From positions 32,001 to 96,000 of IMG/VR virus record IMGVR_UViG_3300021425_002093: 64,000 bases of DNA; one strand, 5' to 3'. The translations under genes were made by a program, and so were the position numbers. This stretch comes from a virus. Position 1 is the stretch's first letter. The number at the start of each line of letters is the position of its first letter. This document shows positions 36,338 through 43,820 of this stretch, piece by piece. The notes below the pieces were generated by a model that searched no databases, was not told the origin of the DNA, and saw only the letters and a list, made by a program, of their open reading frames with translations.

Positions 36338-36988
36338 CTATTTATTACTTTTATTTGAGTGCTGATCAGCAAGCGCAAGTTGATCTTCAATCCACCTAGC
36401 ACATTCTTTAGCAGTCATTGTAGGACTGATAAGAGGCGTTCTATCGTCTTTTCCGATTCCACGAATGACAGATGCAGACAACATCATAGCACTAGCCATG
36501 ATCATACAGACCTGATGTAAGCCAGATCCGTCTTCAGCATCATCGTGATCTATGCCTCGCTCGAAGTCATCGATATGTCGTTTGAGGCTATCGATCATCT
36601 GTTGCCATGGAAGTCCCTTCTCCCAATTTCTAGACTCATACTTCTTAGCGCCGTATTCAAAAGATGCGGCTGCTGCAGCAAGTGCTTCTAGCGGAAGGAA
36701 TCTCATGTACGGGACACCGAGTGCTTCTCTTGTTCCGCCTACTTCAGCATCAATCTCAATGTCTTCTGTCATATCCAGCAAATGACTTTCTTGCATCAAG
36801 TCATCTATGTAAGAGGCTGGAGCGGGGTCTACTAGTTCACAGTCGGATGCTAAAATGAAATTGAGATAGCCGTCAGATGATCGACAAGAATACTCTCCAT
36901 TCTGCAAGTCAAATACTTCCCAGTTCTCACCAACCTTAGAAGAATACCATCTGGATCTATCAGGACATTGCGTTATCTTTACTATCAT
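36338..36988 (-). CDS. dATP/dGTP diphosphohydrolase-domain (DUF5664-like) protein with extra N-terminal domain
   Basis: LP.EAL......YGAKKY..RNWEKG.PW....DSL.RH......D.EDGSGL. Confidence 0.75.
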   Translation of the reverse strand: MIVKITQCPDRSRWYSSKVGENWEVFDLQNGEYSCRSSDGYLNFILASDCELVDPAPASYIDDLMQESHLLDMTEDIEIDAEVGGTREALGVPYMRFLPLEALAAAAASFEYGAKKYESRNWEKGLPWQQMIDSLKRHIDDFERGIDHDDAEDGSGLHQVCMIMASAMMLSASVIRGIGKDDRTPLISPTMTAKECARWIEDQLALADQHSNKSNK

Positions 36989-39661: not shown

Positions 39662-40369
39662 TCACTTGATGGCAATAGCTCCGACAAATAAATGATTCTG
39701 CCAGAACGGTTGAATTTTGTCAAACCCAAATCCCGCCGTAGCGAGAGCAGATTGTATTTCTTTCCATGTCATTGGCTTCAACATATTTCGAAGAGTTTGT
39801 TCTTTGTCCAAAATGTCTTTGTCTGAGAAGTTTTCCCGCTTGTAATCGTAATATGTAAACGTCATCATTTCTTGTAGTCTTGGATCTTGAGCAACCGTTT
39901 TCTCAGCAAAGATAAACGCACCATTCTTGTTCAGTGAATTGTAAATCTTCTTGAGTACATCACGACGAGATGTGGGGGGCATGAATTGTAGGGTGAAGAT
40001 CGAAGTGATTAGATTTGCATTCACAAAATCATAGTTGCGAATGTCGCCAATATGAAACTCAACCTTTCCTTCGACACCACCAAACTCTTCACGCATTTGC
40101 TTTTCACGTTCGTCGAGAGCAGGAATAAATCCATCAGCATACTCAATTCCCACGTATGTTGCGTTGGGAGCAAATTCGTTGTTTTGTCTCATCATCGCAT
40201 GAATAGTCTTGCCTGTTGAACAACCAAGATCAATTACGTTTGTATCGTCTTCAACAAAGTATCTACTAAGATTCACTATATCATCATGTAAAACACTATA
40301 GCCACGAATAGATTTGTCGATATGATCATCGAATCCTTCGTCTCTATGTGCAAAGGTAAAATCAGGCAT
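39662..40369 (-). CDS. cmoA: CmoA-like carboxy-S-adenosylmethionine synthase
   Basis: FTF...FDDHI.KSI.GY, DLGCSTG, GDIR, FTLQF, AEK, YKR match the recalled E. coli CmoA pattern (DWTF..FPDMIQRSVPGY, DLGCSLG, GDIR, NFTLQF, SEK, FKR). Confidence 0.85.
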   Translation of the reverse strand: MPDFTFAHRDEGFDDHIDKSIRGYSVLHDDIVNLSRYFVEDDTNVIDLGCSTGKTIHAMMRQNNEFAPNATYVGIEYADGFIPALDEREKQMREEFGGVEGKVEFHIGDIRNYDFVNANLITSIFTLQFMPPTSRRDVLKKIYNSLNKNGAFIFAEKTVAQDPRLQEMMTFTYYDYKRENFSDKDILDKEQTLRNMLKPMTWKEIQSALATAGFGFDKIQPFWQNHLFVGAIAIK

Positions 40370-40904
40370 TGTTCACTCTCCTCAGTTCATCATCTGTCCA
40401 GTTACCAAACTTCTTTGCTACTCGTAAGGGTATCTCTATAAACTTATCGTCTATCCATTCATTATTGAGATAAACTTTCTTTCGCTTCATTGTCCACATA
40501 TACTTTCTTTGCATTTCATCTGTACTCACGAGCGCTTTATCACCTTGCTTGTTAAGTGTACAACCTATGTAGGGTAGTCCCTCTTCTTTCCAGTACTTAA
40601 TCTTTCTTGCGAGTGCGTGACACCATCGATAGTTCTCAGGCCAGTCGGGATCCCACTTGATATAGTAATCGACTTCTATCAGACCGATCAACTCACCATT
40701 TTGCTTCACGCCGAGATCTACTTTGTAATCGCCAAGCGGGTCTTTGCATATCTTAGTGTTTGCTTCATCCGTGATATTAAACTGCGCTTTTATGTACTCT
40801 CGAAATTCATTATCTGTGTGAATCAGATTTACTAATGCGTCTCTCTGATAAGAATCATCATAGCAGTTTTCGCCATTATGCTCTCGTATTCGTTGACTAA
40901 GCAT
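40362..40904 (-). CDS. hypothetical protein, PD-(D/E)xK nuclease-like
   Basis: D...YKVDL...IEVDYYIKW...W.HALARKIKY; 8-nt overlaps with both neighbours. Confidence 0.5.
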   Translation of the reverse strand: MLSQRIREHNGENCYDDSYQRDALVNLIHTDNEFREYIKAQFNITDEANTKICKDPLGDYKVDLGVKQNGELIGLIEVDYYIKWDPDWPENYRWCHALARKIKYWKEEGLPYIGCTLNKQGDKALVSTDEMQRKYMWTMKRKKVYLNNEWIDDKFIEIPLRVAKKFGNWTDDELRRVNNA

Positions 40905-42114
40905 TGTAAGGCTTTATCACATTTTCATAGACGGACTTTGCAAGTTCAGCCATCATCTTAGGAGCAACCATTCGACCAATTCGCTCCGCTTTCTGATTGA
41001 AGGTTCCCGTCAGTTGATAGTCCTCGGGCAATCCCATCAATCTCTTGAGTTCTGGTATCGTAAACTTACGATTATAATCATAGTGAAACACTCCGGAAGT
41101 AGTCATCTGTTGACCTAACTGAGTTAGTGTTGGACAAGGATGATAGGGAGAAGGCCGTTTCATATTAAAACACGATCCTGTTGGATTCCAATCAGCGAAC
41201 TCAGGCTGACTTGGGTTCAGTGTCTTATGTGGTCGAAATGGTAAGTTCTCGATAAACTTTTTCTGATAGGTTCTTTGTACGTAGTCGAGCAACATTTGGA
41301 TCTCTTCTGGATCATTTTCAATACCAGATAGTGCGCTTTCCATAGGAATCTTATCAGAGGTTCTCTCTGGAAACACTCGATTCATCGTTAGCACATTCAT
41401 ATCAATTGAATCAAATACATCTTGTCGAATACAAACAAAGATGGTGCGCTCACGATTCTGTGCTGTGCCATAATCAGCCGCATTCATCACTTGATACGTA
41501 ACCTCGTATCCAATTTCTTCAAATGCATTGATAAACTCAACAAGCTTACCTTTTGCTTCGCCCATAGTGATTCCCTTAACGTTCTCAGCGATGATCACTT
41601 TTGGCTGAATATCTTTTGCAATCCGAACAAACTCTAAAAACAGATCTTCAATACCTTCTTGAACCTTGTTGTCTGAGTATTTCTTTACTCCATCCTGTAC
41701 GACTATCTCACCTTCGTGAACAATATCTCCATTCTCATCGAAGTAAGACTTGCGTGTGTCTTTTACGTAACCAGCCCAGCCTTTCTCACGCTTACCCGAA
41801 ACAGAAAACGCAGAACAAGGAGGCGATCCATCTAGGATATCAAGCTCACCCTTTTTAATATTTGCAAGAGAAAGAAAATCTTCTCCAGTATACTTCTTAA
41901 TATCATCAACTAGGATTTTCGTGTCAGTATAGTTTTGCTTGTATGACGCAATCGCTTCTTCAACAAACTCGTTGATTAAAAGAACTTTTCCACCAGCGAG
42001 ACGATATCCAGTGCTACTCCCACCGCCGCCAGCAAAACAACTAATGACACTAAATCTATTTTCGTTAGACGCATTGATTACATCCTCGACTGTATATGGC
42101 TTGTATTCATTCAT
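40897..42114 (-). CDS. DNA cytosine-C5 transferase (Dcm family), predicted carboxymethyltransferase
   Basis: Motif I CFAGGGGS, IV GSPPCSAFS, VI ENVKG, VIII QNRER, X ERIGRMVAP (Arg in place of the usual GNAV Asn). Confidence 0.88.
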   Translation of the reverse strand: MNEYKPYTVEDVINASNENRFSVISCFAGGGGSSTGYRLAGGKVLLINEFVEEAIASYKQNYTDTKILVDDIKKYTGEDFLSLANIKKGELDILDGSPPCSAFSVSGKREKGWAGYVKDTRKSYFDENGDIVHEGEIVVQDGVKKYSDNKVQEGIEDLFLEFVRIAKDIQPKVIIAENVKGITMGEAKGKLVEFINAFEEIGYEVTYQVMNAADYGTAQNRERTIFVCIRQDVFDSIDMNVLTMNRVFPERTSDKIPMESALSGIENDPEEIQMLLDYVQRTYQKKFIENLPFRPHKTLNPSQPEFADWNPTGSCFNMKRPSPYHPCPTLTQLGQQMTTSGVFHYDYNRKFTIPELKRLMGLPEDYQLTGTFNQKAERIGRMVAPKMMAELAKSVYENVIKPYNA

Positions 42115-43820
42115 GCTACTAACCTACTAAAGTTCTTGACCTTCTCAAAGCGAAGGGTGTTTTCAAATTTTTCATAAAGTTGTTCACTCTTGTGGCTAAT
42201 TATAAACACATTAGAGTCTGCTGTCAACTCATTAATGATCTTTAGGAATTCATCTGTTCCAGAGCTATCCAGCGATGAATCCATGATCTCATCCATAACT
42301 AGTAGATTCGTACTTACTGAGTTTCTCAATTTAGACACCGCTCTCCAAGTAAACATCAAAGACAGATCAATTCTAAGTTTTTCACCCTCAGAAAAAGAAG
42401 CGTAAGAAAACTCGTCACGGAATCGACTCTTAATTGTTTCGTTAAAGCTTTCATCAAGTTCAAACTGAACAAAAAAGTCCATCGCAGCAAGGTACTTATT
42501 TATCAGTTTGTTCATGATTGGAACATACTGCTTGATAATCCTTGTCTTAATGCCACCATCCTTGAGCATTGTACTAACGATTGCCAAGACTTCTCTCTTG
42601 TCCATTAGCTCCTGTTGTTCTGCAATCTTTTCATTGAGTTCGTCCTGCATGGCTTCGATAGTCGTAGTGTCAATTTCTTCAGCCTCTTTTTCTGCTGACT
42701 CCAAATCATTTTTTATTCCTTTTAGCGAGTTCATTGCAAATTTTTGATTCGCAACATGTTCTCTCATTAACAAATGCTTTTTATTAATATCATCTTCAAT
42801 ATCTGATATCTCATCGATACGCTTGTTGAGTTCGTCTAACTTTTCTTGTAAAGAATCTAAGCCATTTTCGAGTTCAATACGCTTCTTATTTTGCACACCG
42901 ACATGACTTTCTTTAAAGTCTGAATCAATGTCTTGCTGACAAGTAGGACATTCATCATGATTCTCATAGAAAGAGATATCTTTCACCAACGTCCGTAACT
43001 TGTTTTTTAGATCTTGATCAATGTTTTGAGCATTCTTTAGCTTTTTCTTAATGCTATCCTTGTCAGATATTGATCCTAGAAGTGACTGTATCTCAACATC
43101 GATTGTATCGGCTAGTTCCCGCTGTTCCTCAACCTGCGACACTTGTTCTTTGATCTTTTCCTTTAGATCGTCAATTTTATTTTCATGCAACTTGCGAATA
43201 GACTCGTTGTGATCTTTTGCGGAGTCAATCTTGTTCTCTACAAGTGAAATCTGATACTTGTTTTCATCAATACCACTCTTGTTTGTAGAAACATGTTCTT
43301 TGAGTAACGTGTTCATCGTAGTGAAGATTTGAATATCAAGAAGATCCTCAATGACCTCACGTCGATCTTTTGCACTTAGTTGCATGAAAGGAATAAACGT
43401 AGAAGATCCAAGTACAACGACCTGTCCAAAAGACTTGTAACTGAGCTTCAGAATCGTATCTTCAAGATACGCTTGATAATCTCTGGCTGCAGCGTCTTGA
43501 TTAAGTAGCTTTCCATCACAGTAAATTTCAAAGATCGCTGGCTTGATACCACGACGAACAAGATATGTTTTACCCTTGTTAGTAAATTCAATCTCGGTCT
43601 CAAGTCCCTTTTTGTTGATGCTGTTCATCAACTGAGGCTTGTTGATCTTTCTAAAGGGTTTGCCATAAAGAGCAAAGCAGATGGCGTCTAGCATTGTAGA
43701 CTTACCCGCTCCGTTCTCACCCACAACAAGAGTAGATTTATTCTTGTTGAGTTGGACTTCCGTCCATACATTCCCTGTAGATAGAAAATTCTTCCATCTA
43801 ACGGTTTTGAATACTATCAT
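42111..43820 (-). CDS. gp46: recombination endonuclease ATPase subunit (Rad50-like)
   Basis: WKNFLSTGN, GENGAGKST, CPTC zinc hook, FSEGEK, MDE, ISH. Confidence 0.96.
   Translation of the reverse strand: MIVFKTVRWKNFLSTGNVWTEVQLNKNKSTLVVGENGAGKSTMLDAICFALYGKPFRKINKPQLMNSINKKGLETEIEFTNKGKTYLVRRGIKPAIFEIYCDGKLLNQDAAARDYQAYLEDTILKLSYKSFGQVVVLGSSTFIPFMQLSAKDRREVIEDLLDIQIFTTMNTLLKEHVSTNKSGIDENKYQISLVENKIDSAKDHNESIRKLHENKIDDLKEKIKEQVSQVEEQRELADTIDVEIQSLLGSISDKDSIKKKLKNAQNIDQDLKNKLRTLVKDISFYENHDECPTCQQDIDSDFKESHVGVQNKKRIELENGLDSLQEKLDELNKRIDEISDIEDDINKKHLLMREHVANQKFAMNSLKGIKNDLESAEKEAEEIDTTTIEAMQDELNEKIAEQQELMDKREVLAIVSTMLKDGGIKTRIIKQYVPIMNKLINKYLAAMDFFVQFELDESFNETIKSRFRDEFSYASFSEGEKLRIDLSLMFTWRAVSKLRNSVSTNLLVMDEIMDSSLDSSGTDEFLKIINELTADSNVFIISHKSEQLYEKFENTLRFEKVKNFSRLVA

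What the first reader, a model, noticed from the sequence alone, without database searches (positions are those of the whole stretch)
40362..40904. Nuclease-like ORF wedged inside the modification cassette: possible modification-discriminating restriction partner
Seen: the 180-aa ORF overlaps both the transferase and cmoA by 8 nt, and has an acidic helix followed by YKVDL...IEVD, resembling a degenerate PD-(D/E)xK core. Inference: an endonuclease that cuts unmodified host or competitor DNA while carboxymethylated phage DNA is immune would be a restriction-modification system based on carboxymethylation, which I do not know to be described. It could instead be a free-standing mobile endonuclease that inserted here.
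Basis: inference. Interest (0 to 1): 0.72.

Follow-up and report, generated by a model that had tools for sequence, protein, structure and literature searches.

The report
Optional nuclease gene inside carboxymethylcytosine cassette
A small, conserved gene wedged between the two enzymes that put carboxymethyl groups on a marine T4-like phage's DNA encodes a restriction-enzyme-fold nuclease; its unnamed family sits next to DNA-modification genes in many phages, but whether it cuts unmodified DNA or is a mobile selfish nuclease is still open.

Summary
A 180-aa ORF at 40362-40904 (-) overlaps the upstream C5-transferase and the downstream CmoA-like gene by 8 nt each.

The transferase is a clear orthologue of the published carboxymethyltransferase CmoX (E 1.5e-110 to PDB 8YF3). 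It keeps both the SPPC motif and the Arg350 equivalent.

The ORF has no Pfam, PHROG, NCBIfam, PADLOC or PDB sequence match. Its AlphaFold model (pLDDT 85) has a PD-(D/E)xK nuclease fold, with D212 as best match (Z 9.1), followed by Hjc, NhoI, RecU and DpnI. D17, D63, an acidic pair at 77/79 and K101 are essentially invariant in 126 homologues. dN/dS is 0.15-0.23.

All family members found are in T4-like phage contigs. They often lie directly beside DNA-modification genes:
- CmoX/CmoA, in two deep clades
- other C5-MTases
- Dam-type MTases
- TAGT glycosyltransferases
- a Mom-like GNAT-fold protein

Against a strict partner role:
- 0 of the 80 nearest CmoX-CmoA cassettes carry the ORF.
- S-B43 and S-CRM01 lack it.
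- Many members sit alone between gp44 and gp62.

Best reading (about 0.4): a modification-linked nuclease that cuts non-self DNA. Main rival (about 0.3): a free-standing homing endonuclease. The scan's earlier notes on this gene come from this same genome only, not from other DNA.

The parts
40362..40904 (-). 180-aa ORF: stand-alone PD-(D/E)xK-fold nuclease of an unnamed phage family
   Evidence: ORF. No Pfam, PHROG, NCBIfam, PADLOC or PDB-sequence hit. AF2 model pLDDT 84.9, pTM 0.82. Fold matches: D212 Z 9.1, Hjc 6.2-6.8, NhoI 6.2, RecU 6.0, I-Ssp6803I 5.3, DpnI 5.3. Foldseek also finds SPARDA nuclease domains, D212 and Hjc.
40602..40742 (-). Predicted catalytic core (residues 55-101): D63 at the start of beta2, E77-V-D79 in beta3, W84/W88-P89 loop, R100-K101 at the start of the next helix
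   Evidence: Conservation in 126 distinct homologues: D63 125/126; position 77 always D or E; position 79 D or E in 124/126; K101 126/126; R100 122; W84 122; P89 124. Secondary structure.
40854..40856 (-). Codon of D17, the invariant acidic residue just before helix 18-30. It sits where Hjc-type enzymes carry their first catalytic Glu.
   Evidence: D in 124/126 homologues. The correspondence to the Hjc Glu is inferred from the order of fold elements, not from a residue-level superposition.
40897..42114 (-). CmoX orthologue (DNA cytosine C5-carboxymethyltransferase), 405 aa
   Evidence: PF00145 E 1.8e-52. E 1.5e-110 to PDB 8YF3, which is SpCmoX. The SPPC motif and the Arg350 equivalent in 'ERIGRMVAP' are both kept (definition in PMC12783734).
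39662..40369 (-). CmoA-like carboxy-SAM synthase, 235 aa
   Evidence: The best NCBIfam hit is TIGR00740 CmoA at E 1.4e-38, which is below the curated cut-off. Class I MTase Pfam hits. phrog_4752 E 3.4e-63.
42199..42227 (-). Perfect sigma-70-type promoter (TTGACA-17-TATAAT) 85 nt upstream of CmoX, inside the 3' end of the gp46-like gene. It is the likely early promoter of the CmoX-ORF-CmoA unit.
   Evidence: 12/12 match. The best promoter-like match on the minus strand between it and the ORF scores only 9/12. That the three genes are co-transcribed is inferred.
40897..40904 (-). 8-nt overlap ATGCTTAG (ORF start / CmoX stop)
   Evidence: Read.
40362..40369 (-). 8-nt overlap ATGCCTGA (CmoA start / ORF stop). 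It has the same architecture as the CmoX|CmoA overlap ATGGCTGA in cassettes that lack the ORF.
   Evidence: 42 of 76 scored ORF-less junctions overlap by 8 nt.

Best explanation
The ORF encodes a small, stand-alone, metal-dependent DNA endonuclease of the PD-(D/E)xK fold. Its likely catalytic set is D17, D63, E77, D79 and K101. An acidic residue replaces the canonical beta3 lysine, and an invariant lysine is supplied by the next helix.

The gene is transcribed with CmoX and CmoA from an early sigma-70 promoter and is translationally coupled to both. It is not needed to make 5-carboxymethylcytosine. It is an optional third gene.

Its family travels with DNA-modification genes in T4-like phages. 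The most likely role is a self/non-self nuclease. It would cut DNA that lacks the phage's own mark, meaning the host chromosome or co-infecting unmodified phages, while the phage's carboxymethylated DNA is spared. This would be a phage-borne, R-M-like arrangement, functionally comparable to T4 EndoII/EndoIV acting on cytosine DNA or to chlorovirus R-M systems.

Shown: the gene, its fold, the conserved residues, purifying selection, and the synteny and adjacency statistics.
Inferred: nuclease activity, co-transcription, and above all discrimination by modification.
For: Fold and active site:
- PD-(D/E)xK fold. The ESM Atlas's nearest named cluster is PDDEXK_14.
- The acidic/Lys constellation is invariant in 126 homologues.
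- dN/dS is 0.15-0.23.

The trio recurs:
- CmoX-ORF-CmoA occurs at different genomic positions: after gp46, between the polymerase gene and uvsX, and between gp44 and gp62. CmoX is only 45-79% identical across these loci.
- It recurs again in the P0024/P0094 clade. There the ORF is 34% identical, CmoX 48% and CmoA 46%.

Other clades sit directly beside other modification genes, usually with 4-nt overlaps:
- C5-MTase (L113, L117)
- D12 Dam-type MTase (six unique loci)
- TAGT (L005; L062-65)
- a weak N6_N4 MTase hit (L119)
- a GNAT-fold protein whose tied top structural match is Mu Mom

Adjacency is tight. Modification genes make up 11-18% (strict set) or 23-29% (loose set) of genes at offsets +/-1, against 0-4% at +/-3. 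The type of neighbour is clade-specific on the nuclease tree.

Within the window's clade no member was found without a cytosine-C5 modification gene next to it. This asymmetry is what an R-M-like pair predicts: orphan transferases are common, orphan nucleases absent.

An early promoter lies upstream of the cassette.
Against: - No activity or specificity has been tested.
- 0 of 80 nearest CmoX-CmoA cassettes carry the ORF. S-B43 and S-CRM01 lack it.
- Many family members sit alone between gp44 and gp62 or in other contexts.
- Four of five long contigs (41-83% complete) holding such members have no PF00145, PF02086 or PF01555 MTase.
- One homologous family of constant size, with invariant surface residues, paired with marks as different as 6mA and 5cxmC, is atypical for sequence-matched type II enzymes.
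- No palindrome avoidance is specific to ORF-carrying genomes.
- No nuclease-MTase fusions were found.
Confidence: 0.4

Rival explanations
1. A free-standing homing endonuclease gene. In this reading the ORF is a selfish nuclease that inserted exactly at the CmoX|CmoA gene junction. In other clades it inserted at gp44|gp62, polymerase|MTase and similar junctions. It would cut the ORF-less allele in co-infecting phages and be copied in by repair, possibly dragging neighbouring modification genes along.
For: - The ORF is absent from all 80 nearest CmoX-CmoA cassettes. In these the two genes overlap by the same 8-nt architecture that the ORF reproduces on both of its sides.
- ORF-carrying cassettes are scattered in at least three places among ORF-less ones on the CmoA and CmoX trees. 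For example, ORF-less L178 is nested among L008, L010 and L011.
- The family always sits precisely between conserved T4-core genes.
- It occurs in contigs with no detectable MTase.
- The fold resembles the PD-(D/E)xK homing enzyme I-Ssp6803I (Z 5.3).
- L012/L013 show lower dS in the ORF (0.08) than in CmoA (0.30).
- L122 has one copy split in two.
Against: - In most pairs the ORF is more diverged than its flanks, not less. Window versus L001: ORF 61%, flanks 79%.
- The ORF tree is roughly congruent with the CmoA tree, so there is no sign of recent horizontal spread.
- Purifying selection has been sustained across deep divergence.
- There is no extra DNA-binding domain for a long target.
- Chance does not explain why several independent clades abut DNA-modification genes, with a sharp peak at +/-1.
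- The gene has no promoter of its own.
Confidence: 0.3
2. A structure-specific or repair nuclease of the replication/recombination module. It could be Hjc/RecU/D212-like, resolving or trimming branched DNA. It could also be a Vsr/MutH-like nicking enzyme linked to methylation. Its closeness to modification genes would then reflect shared timing at the replication fork.
For: - The best structural matches are D212 (Z 9.1), Hjc (6.2-6.8) and RecU (6.0).
- The commonest location is inside the clamp-loader operon, gp44-ORF-gp62, with 4-nt overlaps, or next to the DNA polymerase gene.
- The overlap with a C5-transferase gene recalls the dcm-vsr pair (textbook knowledge).
- A single biochemical activity would fit one homologous family of constant size.
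Against: - The distribution is sporadic: 72 clusters in 1.8 billion representatives and absence from most close relatives. That is not what an essential resolvase shows.
- The Vsr match is weak (Z 3.7).
- Deamination repair or strand discrimination has little obvious value in a lytic phage without MutS/MutL (inference).
- This reading does not explain why adjacency peaks at +/-1 for modification genes of several chemistries.
Confidence: 0.17
3. A non-catalytic nuclease-fold protein. It might be a DNA-binding adaptor or regulator that recruits or controls the neighbouring modification enzymes on newly replicated DNA.
For: - Translational coupling to modification enzymes of several kinds.
- The canonical beta3 lysine is replaced by Asp/Glu.
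Against: - Four acidic residues and a lysine are invariant at the positions of a nuclease active site.
- S-B43 CmoX works alone in vitro and in E. coli (PMC12783734).
- Members occur with no modification gene nearby.
Confidence: 0.08

Closest known systems
[quoted passage not shown]
   Same: Best structural match: Z 9.1, rmsd 4.0 over 129 residues. It is a small viral stand-alone PD-(D/E)xK protein of about the same size. Its in-vivo role is also unknown. It is a predicted nuclease that resembles Holliday-junction resolvases, and it is dispensable for infectivity (PMC3367457).
   Different: About 13% identity and no sequence-level relationship. It comes from an archaeal virus and has no association with DNA-modification genes.
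CmoA-CmoX-CmoY carboxymethylcytosine system of Synechococcus phage S-B43 (PMC12783734)
   Same: The flanking genes are orthologues. CmoX matches 8YF3 at E 1.5e-110 with the SPPC motif and the Arg350 equivalent. The CmoA-like gene has TIGR00740 as its best hit.
   Different: Gene order in S-B43 is CmoA-CmoY-CmoX with no nuclease-fold ORF. Here the order is CmoX-ORF-CmoA, and no Asn-synthase-type CmoY is found in the 144-kb record. The paper reports ParBc and ligase neighbours but no nuclease.
Type II restriction-modification pairs, including virus-borne ones (chlorovirus R-M; HaeIII, PvuII, NhoI, DpnI as fold relatives)
   Same: A small PD-(D/E)xK protein encoded directly beside a C5-cytosine transferase. 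Fold matches to NhoI, PvuII, DpnI, HinP1I and MspI have Z 4.9-6.2. The orphan transferase is common and the nuclease is the rarer partner.
   Different: The protective mark would be carboxymethyl rather than methyl. The family also occurs beside other chemistries and alone. Specificity is unknown. The chlorovirus comparison rests on general knowledge and was not tested here.
Free-standing homing endonucleases of T4-like phages (Seg, Mob) and the PD-(D/E)xK homing enzyme I-Ssp6803I (PDB 2OST)
   Same: Sporadic presence exactly between conserved genes, with empty alleles common. Fold match Z 5.3.
   Different: Seg and Mob enzymes are GIY-YIG or HNH proteins with extra DNA-binding domains (general knowledge). 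Here there is one domain only, no sign of recent spread, and enrichment beside modification genes.
T4 EndoII (DenA) / EndoIV (DenB)
   Same: Proposed functional analogy only: phage nucleases that attack DNA lacking the phage's cytosine modification (general knowledge).
   Different: Different folds and families. T4 replaces every cytosine before replication, whereas CmoX marks short motifs after replication (PMC12783734).

Membership tests
PD-(D/E)xK nuclease superfamily | alpha-beta-beta-beta-alpha-beta core fold | tested here: met
   Model pLDDT 84.9. VIA-align: D212 Z 9.1, Hjc 6.2-6.8, NhoI 6.2, RecU 6.0, and many type II enzymes. The Foldseek top hits are all PD-(D/E)xK nucleases.
PD-(D/E)xK nuclease superfamily | Catalytic motif: Asp at the start of beta2 and (D/E)-x-K in beta3 | tested here: inconclusive
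   D63 and E77 are present and invariant. The +2 position is Asp/Glu (D79), not Lys. An invariant K101 lies in the following helix. This is a variant arrangement.
Type II restriction endonuclease cognate to CmoX | Encoded next to its cognate modification enzyme | tested here: met
   8-nt overlaps with CmoX and CmoA. The trio is conserved in L001-4, L008-13 and L209.
Type II restriction endonuclease cognate to CmoX | The nuclease never occurs without a protecting modification system in the same genome | tested here: inconclusive
   Met for the window's clade, where every member with known context has a C5-modification gene adjacent. Across the family, four of five long but incomplete contigs show no canonical MTase. 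Two of the five carry the GNAT-fold gene (in G005 it lies two genes upstream of the ORF) and one has a distant N6_N4 MTase.
Type II restriction endonuclease cognate to CmoX | Sequence-specific cleavage that is blocked by the cognate modification | not testable with these tools
   Needs biochemistry.
Free-standing homing endonuclease | Sporadic insertion at a fixed site between conserved genes, with empty alleles in relatives | tested here: met
   0 of 80 nearest CmoX-CmoA cassettes carry it. The empty junction is mostly an 8-nt overlap.
Free-standing homing endonuclease | Evidence of horizontal spread: the ORF is younger than, or incongruent with, its flanks | tested here: not met
   The ORF is more diverged than its flanks in most pairs, and the trees are roughly congruent. 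The one exception is L012/L013 (dS 0.08 versus 0.30).
Free-standing homing endonuclease | Cleaves a long target in the ORF-less allele | not testable with these tools
   Needs biochemistry.
Holliday-junction resolvase (Hjc/RecU type) | Hjc-like fold with an E...D...ExK active site | tested here: inconclusive
   Fold Z 6.0-6.8. Acidic residues sit at corresponding places in the sequence, but the ExK lysine is replaced.
Holliday-junction resolvase (Hjc/RecU type) | Homodimer | not tested
Vsr very-short-patch repair endonuclease | Vsr fold and Vsr catalytic residues | tested here: inconclusive
   Only a weak match to 1CW0 (Z 3.7). No Pfam hit. The gene overlap with a C5 transferase resembles dcm-vsr.
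CmoY amide ligase / ParBc (the neighbours reported for CmoX cassettes) | Asn-synthase (PF00733) or ParBc (PF02195) domain | tested here: not met
   No Pfam family at E <= 1, and the fold is a nuclease.

The most novel reading that the evidence does not exclude
The ORF is the cutting half of a phage-borne restriction-modification-like system whose protective mark is 5-carboxymethylcytosine. More broadly, its family would be a general 'offensive' nuclease module of marine T4-like phages. The module would be re-paired during evolution with different DNA marks (5cxmC, 5mC, 6mA, glycosylated bases, possibly a Mom-like acylation) to destroy host or rival-phage DNA.
Probability: 0.3. Interest if true: 0.8.

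Novelty: new member of a known kind. Interest (0 to 1): 0.55.

Why it matters
5-Carboxymethylcytosine was shown to be a natural phage DNA mark only in 2025. Nothing is known about proteins that read it or discriminate by it.

A nuclease encoded inside the cassette is the obvious candidate for such a reader. If it spares 5cxmC DNA, it would be the first restriction-type enzyme keyed to carboxymethylation. It would also be a possible tool for mapping that base.

Independently of the mechanism, this work defines an unnamed nuclease family. It comprises about 70 clusters at 50% identity, all from phages. It flags DNA-modification islands in uncultured T4-like phages, including several enzymes of unknown chemistry.

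If the ORF turns out to be a homing endonuclease, it would add a PD-(D/E)xK type to the mobile nucleases of T4-like phages. That type could help spread modification cassettes.

Tried and rejected
Searches that found nothing:
- Sequence searches of the ORF against Pfam, PHROGs, PADLOC, NCBIfam and PDB, as a single sequence and as a profile, gave no meaningful hit.
- GenBank phages: no tblastn hit for the ORF and no megablast hit for the region.
- Fused or longer forms: none found. The longer family members (262-337 aa) have no Pfam domain.
- The Melnitz phage 177-aa gene near its MTase is not a family member.
- The BFVD fold search returned only uncharacterised viral proteins.

Palindrome avoidance as a trace of the nuclease's target:
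- CGCG is absent from the 144-kb genome (0 observed, 231 expected).
- It is also depleted in ORF-less relatives, and it is not absent in the other ORF-carrying loci.
- The signal therefore says nothing about this nuclease.

Searches that yielded too little:
- Contexts of several distant members (P0017, P0019, P0032) came only from contigs of about 1 kb.
- The search for related loci with the deep alignment A2 failed for lack of a conserved stretch.
- The D212 structure paper is not held.

Ideas considered and dropped:
- A chorismate mutase or another Cx-SAM supply enzyme: dropped because the fold is a nuclease.
- A link to a Z-genome pathway through the MazZ-like neighbour: dropped because there is no PurZ in the record.

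Full report
**The gene and its setting**

The window is a stretch of a T4-like phage record of 143,934 bp that is about 80% complete. Recognisable genes include:
- gp23 major capsid protein, gp43 polymerase, gp44, UvsX, UvsW and a gp41-like helicase
- gp45, gp46/gp47 and gp55 homologues

Its capsid protein is closest to Sinorhizobium phiM12-type phages (69%) and the marine Methylophilales phage Melnitz (64%).

The ORF lies at 40362-40904 on the minus strand and is 180 aa long. It shares the 8-nt strings ATGCTTAG and ATGCCTGA with the genes before and after it.

The upstream gene is a C5-cytosine transferase. It matches the crystal structure of S-B43 CmoX (8YF3) at E 1.5e-110 and keeps both the SPPC motif and the Arg that binds the carboxymethyl group (PMC12783734). 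The downstream gene has CmoA as its best NCBIfam match.

A perfect TTGACA-17-TATAAT promoter sits 85 nt upstream of CmoX. There is no comparable promoter before the ORF. The three genes therefore look like one early unit, which is an inference.

**What the protein is**

No curated library recognises it. A model built on 17 homologues is confident (pLDDT 84.9, pTM 0.82).

An exhaustive structural comparison puts the fusellovirus nuclease D212 first (Z 9.1, 129 residues). Next come Hjc resolvases, the restriction enzyme NhoI, RecU, the homing enzyme I-Ssp6803I, DpnI and many other type II enzymes. Foldseek agrees. The ESM Atlas's nearest named cluster is PDDEXK_14.

Conservation in 126 distinct full-length relatives:
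- D17 in 124, D63 in 125, K101 in all 126
- position 77 always Asp or Glu
- position 79 Asp or Glu in 124
- R100, W84, W88-P89 and Y92 nearly invariant

D63 opens beta2, E77-x-D79 lies in beta3 and K101 opens the next helix. This is the PD-(D/E)xK layout, except that an acidic residue stands where the lysine usually is. From memory, BamHI shows the same kind of substitution.

dN/dS is 0.15-0.23, against 0.05-0.09 for CmoX. The gene is functional but less constrained than its neighbours.

**Where the family occurs**

A profile search of 1.8 billion cluster representatives found 72. All those traced are unnamed metagenomic proteins. Scans of IMG/VR and contig look-ups gave about 120 loci, roughly 65 of them unique. 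Every one is in the replication region of a T4-like phage.

Immediate neighbours, usually with 4-nt overlaps, are listed below.

| Arrangement | Loci |
|---|---|
| CmoX-ORF-CmoA | L001-4, L008-13; L008 and L010 also have an Asn-synthase CmoY-like gene |
| CmoX-ORF-CmoA-like-GlnII-type ligase, inserted between gp44 and gp62 (ORF only 34% identical to the window's) | L209 |
| polymerase-ORF-C5 MTase | L113, L117 |
| gp44-ORF-Dam (D12) MTase | six unique loci |
| TAGT glycosyltransferase beside the ORF or two genes away | L005; L062-65 |
| a weak N6_N4 MTase hit beside the ORF | L119 |
| a 373-aa protein (phrog_19197, weak DruA hit) | about 15 unique loci |
| no modification gene: gp44-ORF-gp62, cell-wall hydrolase-ORF-denV and others | many |

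The 373-aa protein's model has a GNAT fold. Phage Mu Mom is its tied top match (Z 8.4).

Recognised modification genes make up 11-18% of genes at positions +/-1. With the weaker candidates included the share is 23-29%. At +/-3 it falls to 0-4%. On the nuclease tree the kind of neighbour is clade-specific. The window's clade (100/100 support) is all CmoX/CmoA except L005.

**Evidence that it is optional**

S-B43 and S-CRM01, the cultured CmoA/CmoX phages, have no family member and a different gene order.

IMG/VR holds 401 CmoA-like stretches. In the 80 closest to the window's CmoA, CmoX is followed directly by CmoA, mostly with the 8-nt overlap ATGGCTGA. None contains the ORF. The ORF is therefore an insertion at that overlap, and it reproduces the same overlap on both of its sides.

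ORF-carrying cassettes fall in at least three places among ORF-less ones on the CmoA and CmoX trees. Even so, the ORF tree is roughly congruent with them, and the ORF is usually more diverged than its flanks. That pattern fits old residence with repeated loss better than recent spread.

I checked five long contigs that carry members without a modification neighbour:
- Four have no canonical DNA MTase.
- Two carry the GNAT-fold gene (in G005 it lies two genes upstream of the ORF, within locus L033).
- One has a distant N6_N4 MTase.

**Weighing the explanations**

The tight and repeated adjacency to modification enzymes of several chemistries is hard to get by chance. So is the absence of 'orphan' nucleases in the window's clade. 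Both fit a nuclease whose action is tied to the modification state of DNA. I give that reading about 0.4.

The patchy presence at exact gene junctions, the solitary members and the contigs with no detectable MTase fit a free-standing homing endonuclease (about 0.3). The two readings share the idea of a nuclease that attacks genomes lacking what its own genome has. They differ in how self-protection is achieved.

A resolvase- or repair-type enzyme is possible on fold and location (about 0.17). A non-catalytic role is unlikely given the invariant active-site residues (about 0.08).

Nothing here tests activity. The homodimer prediction and the expression look-up could not be run.

**Novelty**

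The CmoA/CmoX pathway is published (PMC12783734). The nuclease-fold gene inside some cassettes, and its family's association with modification genes, are not mentioned there. They are also absent from every library searched.

On present evidence this is a new family of a known superfamily. Its biological role is open.

Noticed in passing
whole genome record G000 (window = 32001-96000 of it): CGCG is completely absent: 0 observed against 231 expected in 144 kb at 41% GC. AGCT is at 0.61 of expectation. Several 6-bp palindromes are absent or nearly so (CGATCG 0/23, GACGTC 0/18, GGCGCC 0/14, GCATGC 0/13, GTCGAC 2/26). ORF-less relatives also avoid CGCG (46/167) and avoid GATC strongly (441/1917). 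This looks like host restriction pressure, not an effect of this ORF.
   Followed up: partly
window 42199-42227 (-): A perfect sigma-70 consensus promoter (TTGACA-17-TATAAT) lies inside the 3' end of the gp46-like gene, 85 nt before CmoX. It suggests early, host-polymerase transcription of the modification cassette.
   Followed up: no
L209:6274-7275: A GlnII-type glutamine synthetase homologue (E 3e-107) directly follows CmoA-like in a CmoX-ORF-CmoA cassette inserted between gp44 and gp62. It is a candidate alternative amide ligase for 5cxmC, analogous to CmoY but of a different family.
   Followed up: partly
L081:385-1506 and about 15 other loci (alignment A5): A 373-aa protein (phrog_19197; weak DruA/DUF4338 hit) is the commonest neighbour of the nuclease family. 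Its model has a GNAT fold with phage Mu Mom as tied top match (Z 8.4). It may be a DNA-acylating or otherwise DNA-modifying enzyme.
   Followed up: partly
L005:4747-7230: The gene order is TAGT glycosyltransferase, then a nuclease-family ORF nested in the CmoX/CmoA clade, then a 355-aa protein. The 355-aa protein has ESM-Atlas look-alikes that are HaeIII-family restriction endonucleases (score 0.95), but it has no Pfam hit.
   Followed up: partly
L173, L176, L179, L184, L191: Some ORF-less cassettes carry two tandem CmoX paralogues (about 364-370 aa and 380 aa) upstream of CmoA.
   Followed up: no
L122:1-511: The nuclease-family gene is split into two overlapping fragments (85 aa and 95 aa). 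This is either a frameshifted pseudogene or an assembly error.
   Followed up: no
window 36338-36988 (-): A 216-aa protein with a dATP/dGTP diphosphohydrolase N-terminal domain (PF18909, E 3.8e-20; MazZ-like). No PurZ-type adenylosuccinate synthetase is found in the record, so there is no sign of a Z-genome pathway.
   Followed up: partly
whole genome record G000: No Asn-synthase-type CmoY ligase is found in the 144-kb record, which is about 80% complete. The mark may stay as plain 5cxmC, or it may be extended by an unrecognised enzyme.
   Followed up: partly
window 40897-42114 (-), residues about 108-140 of CmoX: This CmoX carries an insertion of about 30 residues relative to S-B43 CmoX, after the SPPC catalytic loop. 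Its target motif may differ from the GC motif reported for S-B43.
   Followed up: no
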